From a virus: a DNA stretch of 13,295 nucleotides. Shown piece after piece: positions 1,126-13,295 of the stretch. Positions within the stretch are counted from its first letter, which is position 1. Each line of letters starts with the position of its first letter. The notes under the pieces were generated by a model. It was not told the origin of the DNA. It saw only the letters and a program-made list of their open reading frames with translations, and did not search any database. Both the position numbers and the translations under genes were made by a program. The DNA is taken from the UHGV virus genome UHGV-0220852; one strand, given 5' to 3'.

Positions 1126-1330
1126 TATTAGCTCCTTCTGATGCCATTCTATTTCAGGAAGGAGTGTCCGTTAAACTCAGGCTACCTCAACTGCCAAGAA
1201 CAGGAAGATCGCCGGAGAGCTGCGGACATCTGTATGTTTTGCCATTCGTACAGGAAATTTTGATTATGCTGCGCAGTTCCCTGACTCTCCTAACCTCAAG
1301 GCTTTTGGGGTAAATAAAAAAGAAATTACG

Positions 1331-2395
1331 GTGAAAGAACTTGAAGAAAAATGGCTGGATCTGAAACGAATGGAAATCTCTGCAAATGCATTCAATCGCT
1401 ATGAATCCATTGCAAGGATGATGGTTCCGAAGATTGGTGGCAACCGACTGGTATCAGCAGTGACCAAAGAGGAATTGCTGTATATCAGGAAAGATTTGCT
1501 GACCGGATACCAAAATCCAACAAAAGGTAAAGCTCCAGTAAAAGGACGAAGCGTTGTCACAGTAAATTATTACATGACAACAATCGCTGGAATGTTTCAG
1601 TTTGCTGCAGATCACGGTTACATAGAAGCAAATCCCTTCGAGGGAATTAAGCCTCTTAAAAGAGCCAGGGCAGAACCAGATCCGCTAACTCGTGACGAAT
1701 TTATTCGCCTGATAGATGCTTGCCGGCATCAGCAGACAAAAAACCTGTGGTCATTGGCTGTGTACACAGGAATGCGTCATGGTGAACTGGTCTCCCTGGC
1801 CTGGGAAGATATCGATCTGAAAGCAGGAACAATTACTATCAGGCGCAATTATACGAAACTCGGTGAGTTCACTCTACCTAAAACTGAAGCAAGTACAAAC
1901 AGGGTTGTGCATCTTATCCAGCCCGCTATCAGTGTCCTGAAAAATCAGGCTGAAATGACAAGACTGGGTAAGCAGCACAACATCAAGGTTCAACTACGTG
2001 AATATGGACGTTCAGTAAATCATGAATGTACTTTCGTATTTAACCCCCAGGTGGTTAGAAAAAGCAAACAGGTAGGTTTTATCTACAAGGTAGATTCCAT
2101 TGGCGACTCATGGGAAACAGCCATTAAACGTGCAGGCATCAGGCATCGAAAGGCATACCAGTCACGACACACTTATGCGTGCTGGTCATTATCTGCCGGA
2201 GCAAATCCAAGCTTCATTGCCAGCCAGATGGGGCATGCAAGTGCCCAGATGGTGTTCAATGTATACGGAGCATGGATGACTGACAGCAATGCAGAACAGA
2301 TCGCAATGCTGAATCAGAAGCTGGCAGATTATGTCCCAATGATGTCCCATGGTCACCAAAGTGACACAAGAGACTTATTAAAATCAGTGAGTTAG
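1331..2395 (+). CDS. int: Phage-type tyrosine integrase (site-specific recombinase); probably N-terminally truncated by the IS insertion
   Basis: 354-aa ORF with catalytic-domain motifs (YTGMRHGEL, ...SRHTYACW..., MGHASAQMVFNVYGAW with the tyrosine nucleophile). GTG start; the same frame is open upstream to 1175, reaching the inferred IS terminus, and no N-terminal arm-binding region is recognisable. Confidence 0.8.
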   Translation: MKELEEKWLDLKRMEISANAFNRYESIARMMVPKIGGNRLVSAVTKEELLYIRKDLLTGYQNPTKGKAPVKGRSVVTVNYYMTTIAGMFQFAADHGYIEANPFEGIKPLKRARAEPDPLTRDEFIRLIDACRHQQTKNLWSLAVYTGMRHGELVSLAWEDIDLKAGTITIRRNYTKLGEFTLPKTEASTNRVVHLIQPAISVLKNQAEMTRLGKQHNIKVQLREYGRSVNHECTFVFNPQVVRKSKQVGFIYKVDSIGDSWETAIKRAGIRHRKAYQSRHTYACWSLSAGANPSFIASQMGHASAQMVFNVYGAWMTDSNAEQIAMLNQKLADYVPMMSHGHQSDTRDLLKSVS

Positions 2396-2421
2396 CTTTT
2401 AATACCCGTCATGTTAACTGC

Positions 2422-2823
2422 GTGGAGGGCAACACCACGCTTTACGCCCTGCCGAAACCCGAGGTTGTCCTGCGCTGGCGTGAACAGACCACAGATGACT
2501 TCCGCTTCTGTTTTAAGTTTCCGGCGACCATTTCGCATCAGGCAGCATTACGACATTGCGATGATTTAGTGACTGAATTTTTGACCCGCATGTCACCGTT
2601 GGCTCCGCGCATTGGGCAATACTGGCTGCAACTGCCTGCCACATTCGGCCCACGGGAGCTGCCTGCGCTTTGGCATTTTCTCGATTCTCTCCCTGGCGAA
2701 TTTAATTATGGTGTGGAAGTCCGCCATCCACAGTTTTTCGCCAAAGGGGAAGAGGAACAAACGCTTAATCGCGGTTTACATCAGCGCGGCGTTAATCGGG
2801 TGATTTTTATTAGACACGTTTAA
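2422..2823 (+). pseudogene. yecE: Internal fragment of a DUF72 (YecE-like) gene, apparently cut at both ends by insertions
   Basis: 133-aa ORF VEGNTTLYALPKPEVVLRWREQTTDDFRFCFKFPATISH...YWLQLPATFGP...VEVRHPQFF fits the DUF72/YecE pattern but covers only about the middle of a ~270-aa protein; it ends abruptly (...NRVIFIRHV*) 50 bp before the serine recombinase gene and starts 27 bp after the integrase stop. Confidence 0.6.
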
Positions 2824-2875: not shown

Positions 2876-4399
2876 ATGAAACGTGTCATTTCATACATTC
2901 GTTTCTCATCAGAGAAGCAAGCTAAAGGCGACTCACTCCGCAGACAATCTAAGATGGTCACTGATTGGCTTAAGGCTCATCCTGAGTACTACCTTGACCA
3001 AGATTTATCCTTCCGTGATTTGGGGGTGAGTGGGTTCACTGGTAAGCACTTGAAAGGTGGCTTAGGTGACTTCTTAACCGCTATCGAGAAAGGGCTTGTT
3101 AAAGCTGGTGATACATTATTAATCGAGAGTTTAGACCGTTTGTCACGTCAGGCCGTAGACCGAGCAAGTGAGCTATTACGAAACATTCTTCGCTCTGGTG
3201 TAGATGTAGTCACCCTGTCCGATGGTGAACATTACACAAGTGAGTCTCTTAAAGACCCGTTAGCTCTGATTAAAAGCATTTTGATAATGCAGCGGTCGCA
3301 TGAAGAGAGTTTGAGGAAGTCTGAGCGTATACAAGCTGCATGGGATGCAAAGAAAGAAGCTGCTAAAGCTGGTATCAAGATTTCTAAGCGTTGTCCTGCA
3401 TGGCTTAAGCTTAATGATGACCGTAAGACCTTCTCTGTGATACCTGATAAAGTGGAGACTGTGAAGAGGTGCTTTCAGCTACGGTTAGAGGGTAAGTCTA
3501 TCTGGGAGATTGTCAGAACTCTTAATGCTGAAGGTCACCGGTCGATGAACCAATACAAGCCGGGTAAGTTTGGTCAAACATCTGTTCAAGACCTTTTGAA
3601 GAATCGCTCTGTAATTGGATACTTTACCCCGAAAGGCTGTGAAGAGATTGCAGGTTATTACCCGTCTGTAATTGATGAGACAACATTCTACAAAGTCCAG
3701 CAACTATCACATTCTCGTCACGGTCGAAAACCTGTTTCAGATAAACCATTGAGTGTGAATCTCTTTAAAGGGGTTATCCGTTGTTCTGAATGTGGTCATG
3801 CTTTGATTATCACAGGCTTTAGCGATACAAGAAACGGGATTTATCGTTGTCCTCTTCGTAATGAAAACCGTTGTAGTGCTAAAGGGCTGTCACGTAAGCA
3901 AACCGATGGTACATTGCTTACCCTGCTATCTCGTCTTGACCGATTTGATAGCGATATGACGAATACCATAGACACACTGAAGCTACACCGTGAACACATC
4001 TCAAGCAATATTGAGAAGCTGGTACAGCTATCACTTGAAATTGAAGACCTGAACGCTATTACCAACAAGCTAAAACAACTAAAGAATGAGTTATCACAGG
4101 TTGATGCTGATATCGAGAAGGAGACACAGCGGCTTAAGTCTATCGATACAGGCTCTTTGTCCGATTGTGACTTGAGTACAAAGGCGGGAAGGATTGAAGC
4201 ACAACTGATAATCAAAAGTGCTGTTAAAGAGGTCGTTTTAAATACTGCTAAACGTCGCTGTAAAGTGACTTTTCACAACGGTAAGTCAATCACCTTACCA
4301 ATAACAGAAAACCCCTCAGAGGACGTTACAGAGGCTATACAGTCGCTTTCTGAAGTCACTGAGAGGGGTTTAATAGACGTTGATGTAGTAGAGATTTAG
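2876..4399 (+). CDS. Large serine recombinase (phage/ICE-type integrase)
   Basis: 507-aa ORF: N-terminal resolvase-type catalytic domain (YIRFSSEKQ with serine nucleophile, ...[12 protein letters not shown]...), recombinase domain, Cys-rich zinc ribbon (CSECGH...YRCP...C) and C-terminal coiled coil; strong RBS. Confidence 0.9.
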
Positions 4400-5169
4400 T
4401 ATCTTTTGTTAGGATTCACACTAAACTTCTTCAAAGTACTACCTGTACCAGCATTATTAAGCACCTTTGAAGCTTGCTCATTAGCGGCATCTGAGAAGGT
4501 GCTTTTTCCATTCTTAATTTTGACACTTCTACCACAATTGATACGGGCTTGAAGTTGCTCATTAGTGAGTTCACTCGTAGAGCGATTATATAGCTCCTGA
4601 CACATCAACATACCGTTACCTAAACTTGTTGTGGTGTTTCCAGTATTCTTTTTAGAAGTTGCTCCACCATCATTCGTGGTAGCGGTCTTGCCAGTAGCAG
4701 ATGAAATATCAGTTTGCCCTACGATTGAACGAAATTCTACACCTTGGAAGGTCATCTGAATACGAAGACCATTAGCAATGGTATGCTCTTTACTCGCTTT
4801 AAACTGAGTAATGATACTATCAGTGATAGATATTCCATCTTTACAAACAATAGTGATGATTTGCTTCTGGTCTCGCCATTGTTCAACCGTAGAAATAAAG
4901 GTTTCTACAAGTTGCCCCTGTCTGGTTAATAGAACTGAACCCGTCGAATCAACCACTACAACACCGCTAATAGAGATGGTCTTAGGTGCTCTCTGAACAT
5001 TATCAGTTATAGTTTGCCCCGATTGCATAGCCTGAGTTGTCACCATCATCGGTGAGTCATAGTCCATCTGTTCAGTAGCTGTTAAGGCAAGAAAAGATTC
5101 TACATTATCTCTAAGGTGAAAATAGATACCATCTTTACCTGAGTATCTAATTTGCTTTGTGTCAAACAT
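4396..5169 (-). CDS. Hypothetical protein (257 aa); possibly tail-associated (sits immediately downstream of the tape-measure-like gene)
   Basis: Long ORF converging on the recombinase gene with a 4-bp stop overlap; Thr/Ser/Gly-rich mid-section; no motif I can name. Confidence 0.55.
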
Positions 5170-5253
5170 TGTTGTTATTCCTATTCTGTTAAGCGTGAGC
5201 TACGTGAAATCTAATTTTTGATGTTGGTATCTGTTCAGAAGAAATCACGTAGC

Positions 5254-5317
5254 ATTCGACTATTCATAGTTGAATCGTCATACTAGATAAAGATTAATAG
5301 ATTGCCATGTGTGGCAA
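5254..5317. promoter_or_regulatory. Two palindromic operator-like sites in the 174-bp gap upstream of the 257-aa gene
   Basis: ATTCGACTAT-tc-ATAGTTGAAT (5254-5275, 10-2-10 with one mismatch) and TTGCCA-tgtg-TGGCAA (5302-5317, perfect 6-4-6). Confidence 0.3.
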
Positions 5318-5342
5318 TAAATATTAGTAGTTCTAACATTGT

Positions 5343-7418
5343 TTATTCCTCTGGGTAAGCTGAGCTAATCAAGGTATCTTCCTGCATACGATTAATATGA
5401 GATGTGGTTCTTTCATCAATAACCTTTCCATCAAGTACCGTCTGAGTTGTGATATTGATTGTCTGAGGCTGAATGTTTACTGACGGCTTGATAACCTTTA
5501 AATCTTGTGTGAATGTTTCCACTCGACCTTTCAGATTATTTAATGCTTCAGGTGAAAACTGTGGAACATCCTTTGATTTGCCCTGAACCATAGCCCATAA
5601 AACAGCAGCTAAAGAGTTCATGTCACCAGTCAATGCTTGGTCTGTGGGTTCCACCTTTGACCTTACAACTTTGTCAATTGGATTATCTGACTTACTCATC
5701 TGACGTTCATAGAACGGTTTAACAATGGAGTTAATCACATCAGTTGCCATACCGACAATCATTACTTTGGTAATTGCATCAGCTACAGATAATTTTCCTT
5801 TACCACCTTCAATACTACCGGAACGTGAATTAATTCTTCCTGCTGCTGTATTTGCTACATTTCCAAGCGTGGAAATAGCCCTAATTAAGCTCCAGATGCC
5901 ACCTACAGCACCAATACCAGACCTTACAGCAACAATACCAGCAAGTCCCTTTAATGCACTTAACAGGCCATTTGCGATACCATCAGCTACAGCTTTTTGA
6001 GTGTCATTTAATTCTCTGTAAGCAAGGGTCACTCTGTCAAAGAATCCCTGCACTCGGTAGCTAATCGTGGTTAAATCATCAATACCGTTTGACATACTTT
6101 TCATCAAGTCGCCAAAATGTTCACCAAGATTTTTTGATTGCCCACCTAGCGAATTAAGTAAATTAGTCAGTGACCTTGTAAAGTCTGTTAAACCTTCCTG
6201 TGAACCGTCGAACATTAAGGCCAGATTATTATTCCATGAATTAGAAAGGCGGCCTAACTGCGTCTGAGTAGAGTTAATAATCTTTTCCCATCCACCAGCT
6301 TTATCAATCATCCTTCCCATTTCAGCGGATACTTTAGGAAGAACATCTTTAGAAAGAACTTTACCGTCTTTCATAGCCTTGTCTAATTCTTCTGTAGTCA
6401 TCCCAAGGCTTCTGGCAAATAACTGGAAAGCACCTGCCATTCTGTCACCTAATTGACCACGTAGCTCTTCAGCCTGAATCTTCCCTTTAGAAGCCATCTG
6501 CTCGAAAGCTTTCAGAATCCCGTTAATTTCATCAGTACTTAAACCCATTAATCTGGATGTGCCAATCACATTAGAAAATAGGGATTCTTTCTGGTCTGTA
6601 TTCATATCACCAGCACCAGCGGAAAACTTAGCAAAACTGCTTAATGTTTCAATCTGGTCTACACCTGTATTATTAGCAAGATTCTTAACGAAGTCTGTAG
6701 CTCGTTTAGCGCCTTCATCGCCTAATACAAATTGTGCCGCTCGTTGTGATGCTTCTTTTTTCAGGCCAATCTCCATAACCTTCTTGTAAGCTTCTAAGGC
6801 TGTCTGAAAACTATAAATGGCTGTACCTGCTTTGATTGCACTTGTAGCTAATACATCCAGACCATTCGAGGCATATTCACTGTGATTATTTTTGCTGGTG
6901 GTCTTATTAAACTTAGAAAGTGTTTCACGTAGATTTTGATTTAATTTTGCTAACTCACGATTAAAAGCTTCGTTTCCAAGTGTCTTGGATTTGCTGCTTA
7001 AGCTGTAATACTGACTCTTAAAATACTTCTCAAGCATAGGATTAAAGTCACGAAGCTTGCTCATATCCACGCTATGTGCTGCTGTGATTGCTCTGTTGCC
7101 GCTAATTCGTGGCTGTCTTGGCTGTCTAAGTGGCTTTAAAGTATCCTCAATTTCCGTTTTAATCTTAAACGCTCTAGTGTTTTTAAGACGCTGCTCAATC
7201 TTGTCAAAGGTCTTATTAAACTTCCTTTCAAGTTGCCCTAAAGAACTTGTCAGATTGCTGTCAAGTTGCTTGGTATCGACCTTAAACGCTCTATTCAAAT
7301 TACGTTCAATTCTTTGTGCTGACTGCAAAGCTGCCTTTTCAACTCTTTGCAAGCCCTTAATAACGTTTTCATTGAAGCCTAGCTCAACGATAAAACTATC
7401 AACTGTGAATTTGCTCAT
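5343..7418 (-). CDS. Tape-measure-like protein (phage tail length tape measure / minor tail family)
   Basis: 691-aa ORF: coiled-coil-like N-terminus, central segment ...GLSTDEINGILKAFEQMASKGKIQAEELRGQLGDRMAGAFQLFARSLGMTTEELDKAMKDGKVLSKDVLPKV... resembling the conserved TMP core, and Gly-rich hydrophobic stretches near the C-terminus. Assignment is by motif memory, not a search. Confidence 0.6.
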   Translation of the reverse strand: MSKFTVDSFIVELGFNENVIKGLQRVEKAALQSAQRIERNLNRAFKVDTKQLDSNLTSSLGQLERKFNKTFDKIEQRLKNTRAFKIKTEIEDTLKPLRQPRQPRISGNRAITAAHSVDMSKLRDFNPMLEKYFKSQYYSLSSKSKTLGNEAFNRELAKLNQNLRETLSKFNKTTSKNNHSEYASNGLDVLATSAIKAGTAIYSFQTALEAYKKVMEIGLKKEASQRAAQFVLGDEGAKRATDFVKNLANNTGVDQIETLSSFAKFSAGAGDMNTDQKESLFSNVIGTSRLMGLSTDEINGILKAFEQMASKGKIQAEELRGQLGDRMAGAFQLFARSLGMTTEELDKAMKDGKVLSKDVLPKVSAEMGRMIDKAGGWEKIINSTQTQLGRLSNSWNNNLALMFDGSQEGLTDFTRSLTNLLNSLGGQSKNLGEHFGDLMKSMSNGIDDLTTISYRVQGFFDRVTLAYRELNDTQKAVADGIANGLLSALKGLAGIVAVRSGIGAVGGIWSLIRAISTLGNVANTAAGRINSRSGSIEGGKGKLSVADAITKVMIVGMATDVINSIVKPFYERQMSKSDNPIDKVVRSKVEPTDQALTGDMNSLAAVLWAMVQGKSKDVPQFSPEALNNLKGRVETFTQDLKVIKPSVNIQPQTINITTQTVLDGKVIDERTTSHINRMQEDTLISSAYPEE

Positions 7419-7520
7419 TGTTCATGTTTCACCTCTTTAAGTGTTCATATACAAAAAAGGGAGAGCTACCGATGTCACTCGATAATCTCTCCCGTTGATT
7501 TTTACCCAACCAATTCTTTT

Positions 7521-7739
7521 TTAATGTCTGACAAGATAATATAATTCCGTTTCACCTATGATTTGGGCATCAGAAGGGATACGGTCGATACACCACTTTG
7601 GAATCTTGCGTGTTTTTGGTTTGTGTGAGGTGATAACTTGACGTTGATTTCCAATTCGTAGCTTTGGTTTGTTGGGTTGTTCTTTCAATCGTTCACTAAT
7701 TGCTTTAATAAGCTCATAGCGTTCTGTTAAATCAATCAT
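7521..7739 (-). CDS. Hypothetical basic protein (72 aa)
   Basis: ORF with AGGTG RBS 4 nt upstream; Lys/Arg-rich; same operon as the TMP-like gene. Confidence 0.5.
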   Translation of the reverse strand: MIDLTERYELIKAISERLKEQPNKPKLRIGNQRQVITSHKPKTRKIPKWCIDRIPSDAQIIGETELYYLVRH

Positions 7740-7762
7740 TCACCACCTCACATTAGTTTCAA

Positions 7763-8179
7763 TTAGAAGTCCAGCAATTCCTCTATTAAGTAGCCTTTTC
7801 CAGCTAAATCCCGATACCGCTTATCTAATTCTGCCTGATAAGAATCGAGATTTTTTAGATAGTCATCTTTAAATTCAGCAAGTAACTCTTCATTAGTTTT
7901 ACTGGTAAAGTCCCTGATGTAACTCCCACCAATCGCTACGCTAATAGTTCTTGTTCCATCATCAAAGTCTATCATTTCAGTAATTTCTGGTGGATTATAA
8001 CTATCTCTTAATCGCTCAATATCCCGATTAACATCCCTAATCAGGAAAGTTAAGTCATCTCGACCATCAAATTTTAAATCTTCCAGAGACTCACCTTCGT
8101 AAATACGTTCACGAAGATATCCGGTAATCTCATCGATAGCATCAAACTTCTTTCTAAGAATATAAAAAATAGGACTCAT
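7763..8179 (-). CDS. Hypothetical acidic protein (138 aa)
   Basis: ORF with GAGGTG RBS that overlaps the stop of the upstream 236-aa gene; Asp/Glu-rich. Confidence 0.55.
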   Translation of the reverse strand: MSPIFYILRKKFDAIDEITGYLRERIYEGESLEDLKFDGRDDLTFLIRDVNRDIERLRDSYNPPEITEMIDFDDGTRTISVAIGGSYIRDFTSKTNEELLAEFKDDYLKNLDSYQAELDKRYRDLAGKGYLIEELLDF

Positions 8180-8187
8180 TCATCACC

Positions 8188-8898
8188 TCAAAGTGCTTTG
8201 CTATATTTCTGAGAAATCTTCGTAAGCTGCTCAATATCAGCCTGCATAGCAACCTTCTTAGCATCTTCATATTCTTTCACAAGCTCTTTCATAGCCTGAA
8301 GCTCTCTTGAGAGATACAACTTAGCACTATCAAGCTGCTTGTTACGTGATGCCAAGATGTTCTGTTTAGCAAGTTCACAGAGTTCTTCATCGCTCTTATT
8401 GGTCATGTAAATAAACTGACCAGCACCTCTTGATGCCTTAACCATCTTCACAATTCGATATCCAGCAGGAAGACTACTAATCACGGCTGCGACGTTTTCT
8501 TGAAAAGTACCAAAACCATCATTATCTTCGTATTGGTAATAGACAAATGGTTTCTGTGACAATTCATCCTGAATCTCAAATTCTGATGGCTCAATAGCTG
8601 ATTGCATCAGGGTAACTTTACTGTAAGCATCATCTAGTTTAATACGCTGTGCTTTTAGCAGTGGGTAATATTCACGCTCAAGATTAAATAGTGCTTCAGT
8701 TTTACCAATATCGGGCATCTCTTGAGACTCAGGCGTCACAAAGATGATTTCCTTTGGTGACATCTTTAACTCTTGCTCAAGTGCAATTCTTTCATCGTGT
8801 TCTTTGCGCTGGATAGTGATAGCTGGATGTTCAGTCTGTGGCGACCAGTCACCGAAACTATCAATCACTTTGTTATTAATGTAAATATCGTTTGTCAT
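8188..8898 (-). CDS. Hypothetical protein (236 aa), first gene after the long leader
   Basis: ORF with AAGGGGA RBS; C-terminal region looks coiled-coil; no recognisable motif. Confidence 0.6.
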   Translation of the reverse strand: MTNDIYINNKVIDSFGDWSPQTEHPAITIQRKEHDERIALEQELKMSPKEIIFVTPESQEMPDIGKTEALFNLEREYYPLLKAQRIKLDDAYSKVTLMQSAIEPSEFEIQDELSQKPFVYYQYEDNDGFGTFQENVAAVISSLPAGYRIVKMVKASRGAGQFIYMTNKSDEELCELAKQNILASRNKQLDSAKLYLSRELQAMKELVKEYEDAKKVAMQADIEQLTKISQKYSKAL

Positions 8899-9008
8899 TG
8901 TTTTCCCCTTCTAAGATATTCAGTTTTTAAAAAGCACACCTGACAGCCTACGAACTTAGAAGAGGCTTAAAAGGCGGTTTGCCAAGTATGCTTTTTAAAA
9001 GCTGAAAA

Positions 9009-9040
9009 AGCCCTAGATAACTAAAACGCTATAAAGGGCT
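9009..9040 (-). terminator. Candidate intrinsic terminator/attenuator hairpin inside the leader
   Basis: AGCCCT (9009-9014) pairs with AGGGCT (9035-9040) around a 20-nt loop; on the minus strand the hairpin is followed by TTTTTCAGCTTTT. The long loop makes it weak. Confidence 0.3.
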
Positions 9041-9228
9041 AAGGTGAAGAAATTAAAAAAAATATCTAAAGGATTCAATAACGAATGATTAAGCACTTTT
9101 CGAGATGACCTCTCAGGTTGTATAAGAGGCCATGTAGCGAAAAGCATTGCACCTTTCAGAATAACTATCCCTAGATGTAGATGGAATTGTTGAAAGAAAT
9201 AAGAGAGAATTACTCTCCCATAATTAAA

Positions 9229-9257
9229 ATTATGTCATGCTTAAGGTTATTTGTCAA
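9229..9257 (-). promoter_or_regulatory. Sigma70-type promoter reading leftward (TTGACA-17-CATAAT)
   Basis: Consensus -35 (9257-9252) and CATAAT -10 (9234-9229) with 17-bp spacer on the minus strand, ~320 nt upstream of the 236-aa gene start. Confidence 0.5.
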
Positions 9258-9281
9258 CAGCTTTTTAACAGATTGGTAACA

Positions 9282-9359
9282 TCAATTCTTATTTACTGTG
9301 TTACCCATCCAGCAACCAACAAATAGCCCTAAAGCCGTCCAGAGAATAACGAGCATCAT
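9282..9359 (-). CDS. Candidate 25-aa hydrophobic peptide (MMLVILWTALGLFVGCWMGNTVNKN)
   Basis: Start overlaps the stop of the upstream 102-aa gene (ATGA), suggesting translational coupling; too small for the ORF track. Unproven. Confidence 0.3.
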   Translation of the reverse strand: MMLVILWTALGLFVGCWMGNTVNKN

Positions 9360-9664
9360 TGCATCACCTCACTGTAAGGGTTTAATTCATTCTGATAGGT
9401 CAAGAATACATTCAGCTTCAATAATTGCTCCGGGCTTAAATCAAGTCGGTTGCATTCGCTTGTGATAAATCTCTTGTAGTCTGGGTCTGTTACTTCCAGT
9501 TTGTGAACAAAGTCACCAAGTTTAATTTCGTTGATTATATGCTTGTCAATATACGTTGATGCTTCAAAACAATGCATGAAATAGATATTAAAGCCTGACC
9601 TGTTCAGGTCATTAAGCCAATTCATAGTTTCTTGGTCAACCATAACTTGCATTGAATAATTCAT
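9356..9664 (-). CDS. Hypothetical protein (102 aa)
   Basis: The ORF table extends it to 9697 from a TTG; the ATG at 9664 has an AAGGAG RBS 9 nt upstream and avoids overlap with the structured element, so the shorter form is preferred. Confidence 0.6.
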   Translation of the reverse strand: MNYSMQVMVDQETMNWLNDLNRSGFNIYFMHCFEASTYIDKHIINEIKLGDFVHKLEVTDPDYKRFITSECNRLDLSPEQLLKLNVFLTYQNELNPYSEVMQ

Positions 9665-9684
9665 TTTTAAAATCTCCTTTTTAC

Positions 9685-9806
9685 CAGACCTCCTCAATCG
9701 CTCTGTAACGAGCCAAACAGTCTTTTTCAGGGGTAGCCTGTACAGTGGTATTACCCACCCTAAAATAAGGTAGTTTTTTGCGTTAGAATGCGATTGAGAG
9801 CGTCTG
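9685..9806 (+). repeat. Structured repeat element, copy A (candidate ncRNA/regulatory element)
   Basis: Shares conserved 5' and 3' blocks with copy B; CTCAATCGC (9693-9701) pairs with GCGATTGAG (9790-9798), plus outer CAGAC/GTCTG; G-U wobble implies the + strand folds. Confidence 0.5.
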
Positions 9807-9819
9807 AGAAGCTGTTTTT

Positions 9820-10107
9820 CTAATTTCTCTTAAAGCCTCGGACTTGCATAAGATTTTTTGGTCTGGTATCGGCTCTGTTACCATTTCGATGGATAATTTG
9901 CTTGTTGGATTGATAGCCATGATAAAGAAACCAGACAACATATTTCACGTAGAAAGTATATCGGCCTATATTAAATGTTTTGTTGCCGTAGTCGTCGGTA
10001 ATTATCGTGACTGACTCTCCATCAGACCAGTACAGGGAATCACTGGATTCATCATAGATAAGGTGTTCTGTAAAATATCGTCTAACATCTTCATGCCAAG
10101 GTTTCAT
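9820..10107 (-). CDS. Small HNH endonuclease (HNH_3-like)
   Basis: 95-aa ORF ...YTFYVKYVVWFLYHGYQSNKQIIHRNGNRADTRPKNL... fits the small HNH family; GAGGAGG RBS; start overlaps upstream stop (ATGA). Confidence 0.65.
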   Translation of the reverse strand: MKPWHEDVRRYFTEHLIYDESSDSLYWSDGESVTIITDDYGNKTFNIGRYTFYVKYVVWFLYHGYQSNKQIIHRNGNRADTRPKNLMQVRGFKRN

Positions 10108-10319
10108 AAAACCTCCTCACCCCAATAACCTAATTCAATCTTGTGACGCTCAAACCATTCTGGCCTGACTGCTGTTTTCAGTACTTCATTTGGGCCAATG
10201 GCTTTAATGAAAATATCTTTTGAGTTATGGATGTCACCGAATCCGTTTCCTTTAATCAGGAGGTCGGAGATGTAGCGAATCATTTTATCCGTGTGGTATT
10301 CAAAGGTAACGCATAGCAT
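10104..10319 (-). CDS. Hypothetical protein (71 aa)
   Basis: ORF coupled to both neighbours (TAATG overlap upstream, ATGA overlap downstream). Confidence 0.5.
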   Translation of the reverse strand: MLCVTFEYHTDKMIRYISDLLIKGNGFGDIHNSKDIFIKAIGPNEVLKTAVRPEWFERHKIELGYWGEEVL

Positions 10320-10597
10320 TAAACCCCCATTGCTAACTTGTGAATCTTAATACTCAATAGTCGGGCGATATCAATTTTAAAGTTGTTTAGTCCCTTCAAA
10401 GTATCTAAAGCGTCCTGAGTAATTCGGATGTGTTTACGACCTTTAGAAACTGGATATTTAAGTAAATCCGACTCAGTGACCTCTTTAGCAATTGCAAGCT
10501 GCATAACAGTCTGATGAGGCAAGTTAGTAGCTCGTTTAATTCTGGTAAGCTCGTTAAAAGCTTCCTCTGAAATACGGGTTAATGTGTGTTTATTCAT
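10319..10597 (-). CDS. Putative ribbon-helix-helix (CopG/Arc-like) DNA-binding protein (92 aa)
   Basis: Start moved from 10699 to the ATG at 10597 (GAGGA RBS; TAAAATG junction with upstream gene). N-terminus HTLTRISEEAFNELTRIKRATNLPHQTVMQLAIAK has the strand-helix-turn-helix pattern of RHH repressors; a second RHH-like stretch (KHIRITQDALDTLKGL...IDIARLL) may follow. Confidence 0.5.
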   Translation of the reverse strand: MNKHTLTRISEEAFNELTRIKRATNLPHQTVMQLAIAKEVTESDLLKYPVSKGRKHIRITQDALDTLKGLNNFKIDIARLLSIKIHKLAMGV

Positions 10598-10598
10598 T

Positions 10599-11030
10599 TT
10601 AAAATTCCTCCAAAATATACGGGTCAAACTCAAAGTCTGGTTGCTCGTTTTCCATTGGCTCAATATTACCAACGGCCATATGATGCTCAACAACACCAAT
10701 TAACTTTGCGCACATTACAGCAAGCAAAGCGCAATATTTATCGCTTGGTAATTCATGGCTAAGTCTGGTTGCTTGACGCTGAAGATGATTTGTCACGTTG
10801 GCTGCGTTAATTTCATCAAGATTCTTTAGAATATAAAATAGCTTTCTGTTGTATTTTGGGTGACCTTCACTTCTACAGAATCCGATAATTACTTCGTCAA
10901 TGCCTTTGCGTTCTGCTCTGGTGAACTTGGGTACTTCGTGGCTGGTGGGGGTGTCTGTGTAAGCGTAGGAGTTGTATCTGTTACGTTGTCTCGATGCCTG
11001 AAGCATCGCTCTAAATTCTCTGTCGTTCAT
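10599..11030 (-). CDS. Hypothetical protein (143 aa), first gene of the leftward coupled operon
   Basis: ORF directly downstream of the leftward promoter; acidic C-terminus; no recognisable motif. Confidence 0.6.
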   Translation of the reverse strand: MNDREFRAMLQASRQRNRYNSYAYTDTPTSHEVPKFTRAERKGIDEVIIGFCRSEGHPKYNRKLFYILKNLDEINAANVTNHLQRQATRLSHELPSDKYCALLAVMCAKLIGVVEHHMAVGNIEPMENEQPDFEFDPYILEEF

Positions 11031-11079
11031 TCATAAGCCAGTCCTTATAATTGTTAATTCTCTGTTAACCATATATACA

Positions 11080-11108
11080 ATACTAGCATTTTCAAAGACT
11101 AATGTCAA
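11080..11108 (-). promoter_or_regulatory. Sigma70-type promoter reading leftward (TTGACA-17-TAGTAT)
   Basis: -35 at 11108-11103 and -10 at 11085-11080 on the minus strand, ~50 nt upstream of the 143-aa gene. Confidence 0.5.
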
Positions 11109-11114
11109 GTATTT

Positions 11115-11144
11115 TTAACATTTTATTAACATCTATGGTATAAT
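11115..11144 (+). promoter_or_regulatory. Sigma70-type promoter reading rightward with extended -10 (TTAACA-18-TGgTATAAT)
   Basis: -35 at 11115-11120, TG at 11136-11137, TATAAT at 11139-11144; sits back-to-back with the leftward promoter, -35 elements 6 bp apart. Confidence 0.55.
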
Positions 11145-11214
11145 GGTTCTATGAGAGAGGGAAAAATAGAAAAGGCGTGGCTATGAGAATGGTCACATGG
11201 TATTGCATTGCACA

Positions 11215-11313
11215 CAGACCTCTTCAATCGCCCTGTAACGAGTTAAATGGCCTCTTCAGGTCAACTCATAAGGTCAGATACTTTTTGTGTCAGGATGCGA
11301 TTGAGAGCGTCTT
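11215..11313 (+). repeat. Structured repeat element, copy B, in the 5' leader of the rightward transcript
   Basis: Same conserved ends as copy A; TTCAATCGC (11223-11231) pairs with GCGATTGAG (11297-11305), including a T-G wobble; begins ~65 nt after the predicted start site and ends 13 nt before the start codon of the small ORF. Confidence 0.5.
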
Positions 11314-11326
11314 ACAAGGAAATTTA

Positions 11327-11515
11327 ATGGTAAATCTCCCTCCTGAACTGGGGTCACCTGATGTATGGGCTGGTGGAGGTGTTGGGCTGATTGCAGGCTT
11401 ACTACTTCGCTATTTCATCGTCAGGGTGTTTATCGTGTTTCGGTTGTTTGGTCGTGAATGGTCGTTTGACCTCAAGGACAGGACCAGAACAGACAACCAC
11501 ACAGAACCCCGTTAA
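11327..11515 (+). CDS. Candidate small single-pass membrane protein (62 aa)
   Basis: ATG with AAGGA RBS 6 nt upstream; MVNLPPELGSPDVWAGGGVGLIAGLLLRYFIVRVFIVFRLFGREWSFDLKDRTRTDNHTEPR has one hydrophobic helix and a charged tail. The ORF table's 112-aa version starts inside element B and is probably over-extended. Confidence 0.45.
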   Translation: MVNLPPELGSPDVWAGGGVGLIAGLLLRYFIVRVFIVFRLFGREWSFDLKDRTRTDNHTEPR

Positions 11516-11629
11516 ACTCCCTTCAAAACCCCCTGTACGTGATGGTATAGGGGTATCTTTAGCATTTTGTGCTATCTATTAAAAAATAGCTTGACAGAAC
11601 CGGAAAGCTGTATCTATCAAGCATTCACC

Positions 11630-11806
11630 TCTCTGACAGTAACCTCTAAAAGTTCTTATTTTTCAATAAATTGTAATTAGCCATATATAGAGAACTGACA
11701 AGTCTCTTCACAATTAACTCTGTAACCTTAACAGTGATTTCTAAAAATACTTATTTTTCAATAAGTTGTAATTAGCCAATATAAAGGACTGACAAGACCC
11801 TCCACA
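11630..11806. repeat. Tandem direct repeat, two copies, ~95-bp period
   Basis: Copy 1 ~11630-11711 and copy 2 ~11725-11806 share a near-identical core CTTATTTTTCAATAA[A/G]TTGTAATTAGCCA and ACTGACAAG; no ORF. Confidence 0.7.
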
Positions 11807-11835
11807 GAGAACTTCCTGGACTCACTAAGATACAA

Positions 11836-11861
11836 GGCGATAACCCCAGAAAGGGAGAGCC
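11836..11861. repeat. Two-tier GC hairpin, copy 1 of a hairpin repeat (copy 2 at 12049-12082); possible terminator
   Basis: GGC-gataa-CCC-cagaaa-GGG-aga-GCC; shares the core TAACCCCAGA[A/C]AGGG with copy 2, while the outer stem differs in sequence but still pairs. Confidence 0.3.
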
Positions 11862-12048
11862 ACCTTCTAATTGGTATTGTTATGAGGATGCTTCATCCGA
11901 ATCATCTACCAATCCCTAAACCGACTTCTTAAACAATCTTTACAGACCCCGTTCACCAGTCTCAATATTTTATTTCTCGCTCTTCGTTTGTTGCTCGTTT
12001 CTATTATTGAGGGGGTTTGAAAAACCTCTGTAAAATAACCCTTCCAGT

Positions 12049-12082
12049 AAAAAGCGAATAACCCCAGACAGGGGAAATCGCC
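12049..12082 (-). terminator. Candidate intrinsic terminator downstream of the methyltransferase gene
   Basis: On the minus strand: GCGA/TCGC outer stem, CCCC/GGGG inner stem, then TTTTT (A5 at 12049-12053 on +); lies 40 nt after the methyltransferase stop. Confidence 0.45.
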
Positions 12083-12121
12083 TCTTTAACATTCTCATAA
12101 TCAGTACTCTATATGAGAATC

Positions 12122-12790
12122 TTAGCCCAACCTTTGAACAATCCTGTAAGTGGTGCTTAGAGGCATTCTTAGCGATTCTGCGATGCTCTTGATGGATTGC
12201 CCTTGGTCATACATTTTAATCAACCTGTCAAGCGTCTGTGCATCGTGTATATGAGGTCTTCCACGTAAACCACCCCTGTTAACCACGGCAAGTAAAAGCA
12301 TTGTGTCACCACAATAGATTGTCTGGGTAACTTCAACTTTCGGTTTGCGGGGTGTGTTCCTGTATATCAAAACGCAACTTGGAAACGGTGAACGCGCTGC
12401 AACACCTTTCTTCCCTGCTGGTGGAAGGTATTTGACTGCTCGGTGTAACGTTCGAATCTCATGCAGAAAGGGGTTTGTATATACACATCGAAGCCAGTAA
12501 GTTGTCTTTGACCTGTGCGGAACCAGACATACACACACATCAGCTTCAGGGGCTTTTGAGAGGAACCGTTCAGCCATGCTAAACGGCGGGTTACAGAAGA
12601 CCCGTTCACCAACCCATGATTGACGGCTTATATCATCGGTGAACCGTGGCAACAATGCGTCATGCTCAGTTGCAGCACCATCCATTGAGAAACTAAATTC
12701 TCGGTGTAGGTTACGAAATAAACGATACGGTGTACGCCAGTCATCAGAACCACCATGATAACGACCGACATTGATTATTGGATGTGACAC
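12122..12790 (-). CDS. Phage-type DNA N6-adenine methyltransferase (Dam family) with C-terminal resolvase-type HTH extension
   Basis: 222-aa ORF (GTG start): ...SDDWRTPYRLF...MDGAATEHDA...WVGERVFCNPPFS...VCLVPHRSKTTYW... matches the small phage Dam family; the last ~50 residues GRPHIHDAQTLDRLIKMYDQGQSIKSIAESLRMPLSTTYRIV resemble the HTH of Hin/resolvase-type recombinases. Confidence 0.8.
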   Translation of the reverse strand: MSHPIINVGRYHGGSDDWRTPYRLFRNLHREFSFSMDGAATEHDALLPRFTDDISRQSWVGERVFCNPPFSMAERFLSKAPEADVCVCLVPHRSKTTYWLRCVYTNPFLHEIRTLHRAVKYLPPAGKKGVAARSPFPSCVLIYRNTPRKPKVEVTQTIYCGDTMLLLAVVNRGGLRGRPHIHDAQTLDRLIKMYDQGQSIKSIAESLRMPLSTTYRIVQRLG

Positions 12791-13295
12791 AAGCGAAGCG
12801 CCCTCTTAGTATATTTCTTAATCATCTCTTTAGCATTTAGTGCTTTTTGTTAAGTTTAGCACTTTTTGCTAAAGACAAAACACTTGACAAAATGGTAAGA
12901 TTGTTCACATAGCCCTTACTTAACAGACTTTTAAGAGACTTTGAAACGACCTACTTAACAAGGTCACTACCTCTGGTCTTATCACTCCCTCTTGGTAGTT
13001 CTGTTAATAATTTTTCAGTTCTCTCTTAAGACAACTGTTAAGACAGAACCTACCTTCGGTTTTCATGGTTCTCTTCCCCCGTTAAACAGTCCTTCCTAGC
13101 AACTTCATAGTTATCTGTCAAGTGCCTTTGAAGATTCTATCAAGACCTCTGAAGCTGACCTGATATAGATGCTGTGAAGGCATATTCTCTAGGTCTGTGT
13201 AGCTTACTTAGTGGGAAGAGAGGGATATAGTGACCATAGGGGAACCCCTCCTGTTAAAAAGACTACTTAGAAGTCTGAGACTTTAGTAAAATCTG

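What the first reader, a model, noticed from the sequence alone, without database searches (positions are those of the whole stretch)
9685..9806. Two copies of a ~100-120-nt element whose conserved ends form a long helix supported by compensatory changes (A 9685-9806, B 11215-11313)
Both copies share a conserved 5' block (CAGACCTC[C/T]TCAATCGC[T/C]CTGTAACGAG...CT[T/C]TTCAGG) and 3' block (ATGCGATTGAGAGCGTCT) around a divergent centre. The ends are complementary: a 9-bp stem (CTCAATCGC with GCGATTGAG), an inner 4-bp extension across a 2-nt bulge, and an outer CAGAC/GTCTG stem across a 3x3 internal loop. Differences between copies preserve pairing: 9702/9787 is T-A in A but C-G in B (11232/11294). 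B has T11223 opposite G11305 and A has G9705 opposite T9784; these are G-U wobbles only on the + strand (A-C mismatches on the other), which argues for a + strand RNA or single-stranded DNA structure. Copy B lies in the leader of a near-consensus promoter; copy A lies between the HNH gene and the next gene. The conserved unpaired motifs TGTAACGAG and CTTTTCAGG could be protein contact sites. I do not recognise it as ERIC/REP, a retron msr-msd, an integron attC or a known riboswitch, but that is from memory only.
Basis: partly seen in the sequence, partly recalled or inferred. Interest (0 to 1): 0.8.

Follow-up and report, generated by a model that had tools for sequence, protein, structure and literature searches.

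The report
Island-specific palindromic intergenic repeat family

Summary
Both copies exist as described and fold far better than shuffles (z -4.8 and -5.5). The terminal helix is an inverted repeat paired in 97% of cells across 42 distinct sequences. Covariation does not exceed shuffles. Wobble-type and A-C-type changes are equally frequent as events, so no strand can be called. Both strands fold equally well.

Copy A is antisense to the operon it lies in. A third, inverted copy lies about 16 bp past the window end.

The family is confined to a roughly 12-kb serine-recombinase island with phage tail genes, found in 464 of 5426 complete E. coli genomes. Each copy is dispensable: A occurs in 360 genomes and B in 217. 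B was lost cleanly at least twice, and A and B each occur without the other. A is 98% conserved while its flanks are unrelated, so it marks a seam between exchangeable modules, next to an optional HNH gene.

Related cores occur in intergenic DNA of three jumbo phages, where they do not form the hairpin. Rfam has no match.

Best reading: a new ERIC/Correia/PeSL-like palindromic intergenic repeat, probably an mRNA hairpin just upstream of ribosome-binding sites and a recombination patch. Function is untested.

The parts
9685..9806 (.). Copy A (A-type, 121-122 bp imperfect palindrome). Homology to the third copy runs on to 9814.
   Evidence: CM R1 scores 104.7 bits on + and 31.2 bits on -.
9660..9844 (.). 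Block conserved between islands: A plus the SD/ATG of the leftward ORF on its left and the last codons and stop of the upstream ORF on its right. DNA beyond both ends is variable.
   Evidence: blastn mosaic. A has median 98.3% identity versus 58% and 60.5% in the 200-bp flanks, over 52 loci.
11215..11313 (.). Copy B (B-type, 98-100 bp imperfect palindrome).
   Evidence: CM gives 112.4 bits. Absent from 14 of 34 islands that have A and the downstream ORF.
11115..11144 (+). Rightward sigma-70-like promoter (TTAACA-18-TATAAT with TG, 11/12). Copy B starts about 64 nt downstream of the inferred start.
   Evidence: Conserved in the island leaders listed.
11080..11108 (-). Leftward sigma-70-like promoter (TTGACA-17-TAGTAT with TG, 10/12) of the early operon that runs through copy A as its reverse complement.
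   Evidence: Tightly packed leftward ORFs 11030->9820.
11327..11515 (+). 62-aa single-pass membrane-protein ORF. Its SD (AAGGA) begins 3 nt after copy B and its ATG lies 14 nt after copy B.
   Evidence: Annotated as a hypothetical protein in L001 and L141. No Pfam or NCBIfam match.
9356..9664 (-). Variable cassette ORF (102 aa). Its SD (AAGGAG) and ATG lie 10-20 nt downstream of the reverse complement of A. Other islands carry unrelated ORFs here.
9820..10107 (-). HNH endonuclease gene. The segment 9845-10121 is precisely absent in L030, L043, L045, L051 and L062, so it is an optional free-standing insertion 39 bp from copy A.
   Evidence: Pfam HNH_3 at 2e-08. Junctions.

Best explanation
A and B are two of up to three paralogous copies of a 100-125-bp imperfect palindrome. 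The third copy, 'T', is inverted and starts about 16 bp beyond the window's right end. The repeat is private to a roughly 12-kb serine-recombinase island of Escherichia that carries phage tail genes.

It is a DNA repeat of the ERIC / Correia / T4-PeSL kind, not a strand-specific RNA gene. It occupies intergenic gaps at seams between exchangeable gene modules, in either orientation relative to transcription, and each copy is dispensable.

Most likely mode of action (inferred). The repeat is co-transcribed with its neighbours: A as its reverse complement inside the leftward early operon, and B in the 5' leader of the rightward membrane-protein gene. On either strand it folds into an irregular hairpin with a stem of about 20 bp, ending 10-15 nt upstream of the next Shine-Dalgarno. 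There it would act as an mRNA processing or stability element, either a double-strand-specific (RNase III-type) cleavage site or a barrier to exonucleases, uncoupling adjacent cassettes.

At the DNA level, its near-identity between otherwise divergent islands provides the homology patch at which modules, including the HNH gene, are swapped.

Shown: the repeat family, its hairpin, its positions, its dispensability and the mosaic seams. Inferred: transcription through the copies, RNA processing and the role in recombination.
For: - Hairpin is real on both strands with equal stability: A -45.0/-46.0, B -34.0/-31.0 and T -46.5/-40.4 kcal/mol. It stays an independent hairpin when folded in its mRNA context.
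- No strand bias and no covariation.
- A is antisense to its operon and B is sense to its transcript. Both end 10-15 nt before an SD and ATG.
- Only A, B and T are found per island, at fixed intergenic positions.
- Dispensability: A is in 360, B in 217 and the surrounding region in 464 of 5426 genomes. Fourteen of 34 islands lack B, with two different near-precise junctions. Eleven loci have B but no A.
- Seam behaviour: A is 98.3% conserved while its flanks are 58% and 60.5%, meaning non-homologous. Homology breaks occur at 9660 and at 9809 or 9844, and the HNH segment is optional.
- Palindrome-type rearrangements: the apex is inverted in L066 (27/35 versus 20/35) and the whole palindrome is lost cleanly.
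- An A-less island has a different hairpin with 14-bp arms in the equivalent gap. Another long hairpin (8919-9006) precedes the tail-gene start.
Against: - No transcript, cleavage or expression data were available, so the RNA step is inference.
- Conservation of A (98%) and of non-helical motifs (CTGTAACGAG, TTAGAATGCG) shared by the A, B, T and phage copies exceeds what a generic hairpin needs. This suggests sequence-specific recognition.
- Copy T is not adjacent to a conserved ORF or RBS.
- Jumbo-phage relatives keep the core sequence but not the hairpin.
- Several common variants in the 3' arm break pairing on either strand.
Confidence: 0.42

Rival explanations
1. DNA-level recognition site. 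The conserved core (TTAGAAYGCG-N5-AGAGCGTCT and its inverted partner GCTCTGTAACG) is bound as DNA by an island, helper-phage or host protein. Candidate roles are a regulator operator, a packaging or replication signal, or the target of the adjacent HNH homing endonuclease. The hairpin would be a by-product of two inverted sites.
For: - The sequence, not only the pairing, is conserved across the A, B, T and phage copies.
- A is 98% conserved amid unrelated flanks.
- The optional HNH gene lies 39 bp away.
- The same core is present without a hairpin in Wellington-like phages and in EJP2.
- The island encodes a Dam-HTH_7 fusion and unassigned small proteins.
Against: - Arms 65-90 bp apart are not a normal dimer site.
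- Every copy is dispensable.
- The core is single-copy in 145 kb of Wellington, so it is not a general phage signal.
- A's conservation is equally high in HNH+ and HNH- islands.
- No binding protein was identified.
Confidence: 0.2
2. Selfish or neutral miniature palindromic element (MITE-like). It spread by duplication within the island lineage and occasionally into phages, and has no function of its own.
For: - The ends resemble 17-bp terminal inverted repeats: CAGACCTCCTCAATCGC versus CAGACGCTCTCAATCGC.
- Homology with the L040 phage copy stops at the element boundaries.
- Presence/absence polymorphism has near-precise edges.
- Each copy is dispensable.
Against: - No target-site duplication at A, B, T or L040.
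- No copies elsewhere in the host chromosome: median one place per genome, none on plasmids.
- Positions are orthologous in all islands.
- No candidate transposase. The gene annotated 'transposase' has no Pfam or NCBIfam support.
- The elements are more conserved than their flanks.
Confidence: 0.15
3. One reading: a + strand structured RNA (a cis-regulatory leader for B, an sRNA for A) or a + strand ssDNA structure, with protein contacts at conserved single-stranded motifs.
For: - B lies in the leader of a strong, conserved + promoter and stays an autonomous hairpin in that leader.
- By cell count, G.U states outnumber A.C states 37 to 16.
- One true compensatory change (T7-A to C-G) occurs in L013 copy B.
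Against: - By independent events the ratio is 9 to 10, and 16 of the 37 G.U cells come from one column pair.
- Covariation is not above shuffles.
- A is antisense to its operon and its upstream + sequence is not conserved.
- T is in the opposite orientation.
- B is missing from 41% of islands.
- Phage homologues do not fold.
- No Rfam family matches.
Confidence: 0.12
4. Sense/antisense RNA control of the P4 CI or P1 C4 type. B RNA (sense) pairs with the reverse complement of A in the early-operon mRNA, and with the reverse complement of T in rightward read-through, to limit expression.
For: The orientation logic fits: one sense copy behind a strong promoter, and two copies antisense to their transcription units. 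The shared 42-nt and 37-nt blocks would give extended complementarity.
Against: - A and B occur independently of each other: 14 loci have A only and 11 have B only.
- Variable positions in the shared motif do not co-vary between A and B of the same island.
- The complementary blocks are buried in stems.
- The Rfam C4 family gives no hit.
Confidence: 0.03

Closest known systems
ERIC/IRU and similar enterobacterial intergenic palindromic repeats
   Same: An imperfect palindrome of about 100-127 bp. Lies in transcribed intergenic DNA, in either orientation. Shows presence/absence polymorphism and internal insertions or deletions. Known from established literature to affect mRNA stability.
   Different: No sequence similarity recalled, and this was not testable here. 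ERIC occurs in tens of copies in every E. coli genome. This repeat occurs 1-3 times, and only in the 4-9% of genomes that carry one island.
Neisseria Correia elements (CREE)
   Same: A 100-155-bp unit with terminal inverted repeats. Co-transcribed hairpins are cut by RNase III and alter expression of neighbouring genes (established literature).
   Different: Correia elements have TA target duplications, an IHF site and hundreds of dispersed copies. None of these is seen here.
T4-type phage PeSLs (promoter-early stem-loops; Arbiol, Comeau & Krisch 2010, from memory)
   Same: Conserved short intergenic cassettes with a stem-loop that flank small variable ORFs and mark the points of modular shuffling. 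Copy B sits with a strong early-type promoter.
   Different: A and T have no conserved promoter. The stem-loop here is 5-10 times longer. The host element is an integrative island, not a T4-type phage.
Phage T7 early-region RNase III sites (R0.3-R1.3)
   Same: Several sequence-related, irregular intergenic hairpins just upstream of the next gene's RBS in a polycistronic phage mRNA.
   Different: T7 sites all share one orientation with respect to transcription, whereas here A is inverted relative to B. Cleavage is untested.
Integron attC sites
   Same: Imperfect inverted repeats of 57-141 nt with conserved ends and a variable centre, bordering variable cassettes.
   Different: There is no IntI. 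The island has a large serine recombinase and the window has a phage-type tyrosine integrase. The ends are CAGAC.../...GTCTG rather than RYYYAAC/GTTRRRY. There is no strand asymmetry.
P4 CI / P1 C4 antisense immunity RNAs (Rfam C4)
   Same: A satellite or phage context with three related sequence blocks in two orientations around divergent promoters.
   Different: No Rfam hit. The partners are not co-inherited.

Membership tests
Any Rfam family (riboswitch, sRNA, ribozyme, C4, Y-RNA-like and others) | Match to a curated covariance model | tested here: not met
   0 matches at E<=1 over the whole window. Only noise at E<=5 over L141 8100-14300, which includes copy T.
Structured RNA (generic) | Base pairs kept by compensatory change beyond what relatedness gives | tested here: not met
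   Two pairs with a double change, and 77 of 500 shuffles are as high. The covariation score is 0.079 versus 0.076 for shuffles.
Structured RNA (generic) | Strand-specific tolerance of G.U over A.C | tested here: not met
   9 versus 10 distinct site-states. The two strands fold with equal energy.
ERIC / REP / BIME | Many dispersed copies in essentially every E. coli chromosome | tested here: not met
   A is in 360 and B in 217 of 5426 genomes, with median one place per genome.
MITE / Correia-type element | Terminal inverted repeats | tested here: met
   17-nt ends with 14/17 identity as inverted repeats.
MITE / Correia-type element | Target-site duplication and insertion at non-orthologous sites | tested here: not met
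   No duplication flanks A, B, T or L040. All island copies sit at three orthologous sites.
Integron attC | Associated IntI integrase and R''/R' core sites (RYYYAAC ... GTTRRRY) at the ends | tested here: not met
   The recombinases present are a large serine recombinase and a phage-type integrase. The ends are CAGAC/GTCTG.
Retron msr-msd | Adjacent reverse transcriptase | tested here: not met
   No RT domain in any island ORF scanned against Pfam, PHROGs or NCBIfam.
T4 PeSL-type shuffling cassette | Conserved intergenic unit flanking variable small ORFs at mosaic junctions | tested here: met
   Homology breaks occur on both sides of A. The element is 98% conserved versus 58-60% for the flanks.
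T4 PeSL-type shuffling cassette | Early promoter inside each unit | tested here: inconclusive
   A strong promoter lies 64 nt upstream of B but outside the repeat. None is conserved at A or T.
RNase III processing site | Cleavage of the hairpin in vivo or in vitro | not testable with these tools
   Only the prerequisite is met: an irregular helix of about 19-21 bp on either strand.
P4 CI / P1 C4-type antisense control | Regulator and target copies co-inherited and complementary | tested here: not met
   14 loci have A without B, and 11 have B without A.

The most novel reading that the evidence does not exclude
The roughly 20-nt core shared with jumbo phages could be a signal by which this island interacts with a phage. 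The core is TTAGAAYGCGTTACAGAGCGTCT together with its inverted partner GCTCTGTAACG. It occurs in Wellington-like Erwinia phages, in an SPN3US/phiEaH2-like metagenomic phage, and as a 24-nt fragment in E. coli phage EJP2. The island would then be an undescribed satellite-like element carrying Felixounavirus-like tail genes, and it would use the core to sense, be transcribed by, or be packaged by a helper phage. The palindromic A, B and T units would be a new kind of satellite-helper recognition element.
Probability: 0.07. Interest if true: 0.8.

Novelty: new member of a known kind. Interest (0 to 1): 0.38.

Why it matters
If the best reading holds, this adds one more family to the known class of intergenic palindromic repeats. 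Its value is mostly as a marker. It tags an uncharacterised 12-kb serine-recombinase island found in about 9% of complete E. coli genomes. That island carries a phage tail module, an optional homing endonuclease and more than 2 kb of ORF-poor DNA.

The repeat also pinpoints the seams at which the island's accessory cassettes are exchanged. Natural B+ and B- alleles and A+ and A- alleles provide ready-made controls for testing whether such hairpins tune expression.

The link to jumbo-phage intergenic DNA is the only feature that could make it more than ordinary.

Tried and rejected
- Rfam at permissive thresholds on the window, L040 and L141 gave nothing.
- A literature search for the sequence motifs returned only unrelated primers.
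- Searches for a described satellite or SpLE matching the island, and for O157 sRNAs, were uninformative. Esr41 is from SpLE1, which is a different element.
- The pattern CTGTAACGAGNTAAAC in viral contigs gave only chance hits in coding DNA.
- One viral scan was wasted on a mis-spaced pattern.
- Protein homologues of the 143-aa early gene are all Escherichia, Shigella or Salmonella. They gave no route to distant loci for covariation.
- PDB sequence searches of three island proteins gave nothing.
- A boxA/nut-like reading of CGCTCTGTAACGA was rejected because the motif is buried in the helix and A is antisense.
- A Hin/Gin-type crossover-site reading of TAAC-GA-GTTA was rejected because the symmetry is absent in A-type copies.
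- An IS200/IS605 (TTAC target) reading was rejected because only A has TTAC on its left.
- A small peptide (MRLRAS...) starting in the 3' arm was noted but not adopted. It has no usable SD, its ATG is inside the helix and its C-terminus is not conserved.
- A putative second copy in L040 (3120-3215) was dropped because it is unsupported by self-BLAST or the CM.
- CTGTAAC enrichment (5 versus 1.5 expected in the window; 7 versus 2.4 in L141, all on +) was noted but is too weak to interpret.

Full report
**What is there.** The window holds copy A (9685-9806) and copy B (11215-11313) in the same orientation. They share a 42-nt 5' block and a 37-nt 3' block around a divergent centre. Each folds into one long irregular hairpin. 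MFE is -42 and -37.5 kcal/mol, z is -4.8 and -5.5, and no shuffle out of 200 folds as well. The reverse complements fold equally well, at -44.1 and -32.4 kcal/mol. The physical observation is therefore confirmed.

**Context.**
- All genes from 4396 to 11030 run leftward.
- Divergent promoter-like sites sit at 11108-11080 on the - strand (10/12, with TG) and 11115-11144 on the + strand (11/12, with TG).
- The leftward operon has tightly packed ORFs, including an HNH gene at 9820-10107. It runs into copy A, so the transcript expected there carries A's reverse complement.
- That reverse complement ends 10 nt before the AAGGAG/ATG of ORF 9664-9356.
- Copy B lies about 64 nt downstream of the + promoter and ends 14 nt before the ATG of a 62-aa membrane-protein ORF (11327-11515).
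- Both copies remain autonomous hairpins when folded in their mRNA context.

**The host element.**
- The window is most of a roughly 12-kb island. It contains a large serine recombinase (2876-4399), a Dit-like protein, a tape-measure protein and probable tail genes. It also has small unknown ORFs, a Dam-HTH fusion and more than 2 kb of ORF-poor DNA.
- Intact copies lie between wrbA and ymdF (L001, L141) or inside yecE (L121).
- The region around the copies occurs in 464 of 5426 complete E. coli genomes, always on the chromosome.
- In the one-genome-per-species collection, hits were only in E. albertii and one MAG labelled Ruminococcus, which was not examined.

**The family.** Pattern scans gave 108 copies, of which 58 are distinct: 26 A-type, 31 B-type and one divergent copy in L040. 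BLAST and a covariance model revealed a third paralogue, T. It is inverted, 70-72% identical to A, and starts about 16 bp beyond the window's right end. T forms its helix with a different partner, GCTCTGTAGCG with CGTTACAGAGC, and folds with z -4.5. No further copies exist in the islands examined.

**Tests of the RNA interpretation.**
- On 42 distinct sequences the 19-pair terminal helix is paired in 97% of cells, against 29-41% when slid. Only two pairs show a double change, each in one sequence, and 77 of 500 shuffles do as well.
- Non-Watson-Crick states split into 9 G.U-type and 10 A.C-type site-states. By cells the split is 37 to 16, but 16 of the G.U cells come from one column pair.
- A and B favour different registers for the inner helix.
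- Rfam gives nothing.
- The helix is therefore a conserved inverted repeat, and neither covariation nor strand can be claimed.

**Dispensability and seams.**
- A occurs in 360 genomes and B in 217.
- Of 34 loci with A and the membrane-protein ORF, 14 lack B.
- These B-less loci show two different near-precise junctions: CACACAG|GAAATTTAATG and CACACAG|AAGGTACATTGAATG. That means at least two clean losses of the whole palindrome.
- Eleven loci have B but no A, because the module between 9341 and 10312 has been replaced. One such island (L021) carries an unrelated hairpin with 14-bp arms in the equivalent gap.
- Homology between islands breaks at 9660 and at 9809 or 9844.
- The segment 9845-10121, which holds most of the HNH gene, is precisely absent from five loci.
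- Relative to the window, A has median 98.3% identity while its 200-bp flanks are at 58% and 60.5%. B is at 92.9%, versus 84% and 80% for its flanks.
- In L066 the apex of A is inverted.

**Relatives outside the island.**
- L040 is a contig of an SPN3US/phiEaH2-like jumbo phage. It carries a B-like copy scoring 49 bits (E 1e-9), and the homology stops at the element's edges.
- L147 is a Wellington/Kwan-like Erwinia jumbo phage. It shares 33 exact nucleotides with T.
- The same core lies in the gp78-gp79 intergenic region of the cultured phage Wellington. It is single-copy in the 145 kb of that genome scanned.
- E. coli jumbo phage EJP2 has 24 exact nucleotides of A's 3' arm and no 5' arm.
- The L040 and L147 copies do not fold better than shuffles, with z of 0.0 and -0.5.
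- The 5' motif GCTCTGTAACG is essentially the reverse complement of the T-type 3' core. The island palindromes therefore look like inverted duplications of one core.

**Interpretation.** The profile is as follows:
- a discrete unit at fixed intergenic sites, found in both orientations;
- symmetric with respect to strand;
- dispensable, and cleanly deletable;
- more conserved than its flanks;
- located at module junctions next to a homing endonuclease.

This is the profile of a palindromic intergenic repeat of the ERIC/Correia/PeSL kind. I favour an orientation-independent mRNA hairpin just upstream of ribosome-binding sites that also serves as a recombination patch (confidence 0.42).

A DNA-level protein site is the main rival (0.2), because sequence conservation exceeds what a hairpin needs and the phage copies keep the core without the hairpin. 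The last is nearly excluded by the independent inheritance of A and B. All functional steps remain untested.

**Verdict.** The element is real and undescribed, but it is an ordinary kind of thing. The strand-specific structured-RNA claim is not supported. Interest is 0.38. The jumbo-phage link and the host island itself are the parts most worth following.

Noticed in passing
window 2876-13295 (continues beyond the right end); L141 2431-~14200: The host is an uncharacterised ~12-kb island. It contains a large serine recombinase, a tail module (236-aa, 138-aa and 72-aa ORFs, tape measure, Dit-like protein), an early operon and an ORF-poor right arm. It is found in 464 of 5426 complete E. coli genomes, at yecE or wrbA|ymdF. 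Its tape-measure protein is 30-38% identical to Felixounavirus TMPs. It looks satellite-like, and no description was found in the literature searches.
   Followed up: partly
just beyond window 13295; L141 12810-12930 (-), L001 15568-15713 (-): A third, inverted paralogue (T) of the repeat. Its helix uses GCTCTGTAGCG with CGTTACAGAGC instead of CTCAATCGC with GCGATTGAG.
   Followed up: yes
window 9845-10121: This segment, which holds most of the HNH gene, is precisely absent in five related islands. That makes it a free-standing homing-endonuclease insertion. Its presence correlates with the allele of the gene to its right (84-93% versus ~71% identity).
   Followed up: partly
window 11636-11813: Two tandem copies of a ~95-nt unit (48-nt block at 88%, 35-nt block at 77%) in the non-coding DNA after the membrane-protein ORF. 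They are conserved in other islands.
   Followed up: no
window 12900-13270: A cluster of at least five CTGTTAA/TTAACAG motifs in an ORF-free, conserved stretch. These could be iterons or operator sites. The whole right arm of the island (about 2 kb in L141) has no ORF of 60 aa or more.
   Followed up: no
window 9257-9199 (-): A near-consensus leftward promoter (TTGACA-17-CATAAT with TG, 11/12) is immediately followed by a terminator-like hairpin (9221-9199), ahead of the tail genes. The arrangement recalls late promoters controlled by antitermination.
   Followed up: no
window 8919-9006: Another long inverted repeat (27-nt arms, 85% complementary) lies just upstream of the start of the 236-aa tail-module gene. 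It is conserved in other islands and picked up weakly by the CM (17.7-18.3 bits in the window, L121 and L013; a 16.3-bit hit in L062).
   Followed up: partly
leader upstream of copy B (window ~11185; L141 10738-10790); also L141 12930-12950 and 13535-13555: An indel module, GGTTTATTCGATA(GGGGTTGGTACAAGCCCAACT)AACCGAATCAACTATG, is present or absent in the leader. Its CGAATCAACTATG motif recurs next to copy T and in the right arm.
   Followed up: no
window 9788-9823 and 11290-11322 (+): The 3' arm starts a tiny ORF (ATG CGA TTG AGA GCG TCT...; MRLRAS...). In B its TAA overlaps the ATG of the membrane-protein ORF. The common variants (CGG, TTA, AGG, TCC) are synonymous in this frame and the non-synonymous ones are singletons. 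It is probably coincidence, since there is no SD and the ATG lies inside the helix.
   Followed up: partly
window 12122-12790 (-): A fusion of a phage-type N6-adenine methyltransferase with a resolvase-type HTH_7 domain. It is absent from islands such as L001, which instead carry a 183-aa gene annotated as a recombinase family protein near copy T.
   Followed up: no
window 1193-2807: A tyrosine integrase 78% identical in DNA to the intR of yecE-integrating Stx phages lies between the left flank and the serine-recombinase island. This suggests tandem or nested integration.
   Followed up: no
L142 (phage EJP2) 3970-3995: The 24-nt fragment of the repeat in EJP2 lies in a 335-bp gap within an array of small ORFs. 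In this gap two consensus sigma-70 promoters precede the next ORF. A Chi sequence (GCTGGTGG) lies just upstream of the fragment.
   Followed up: no
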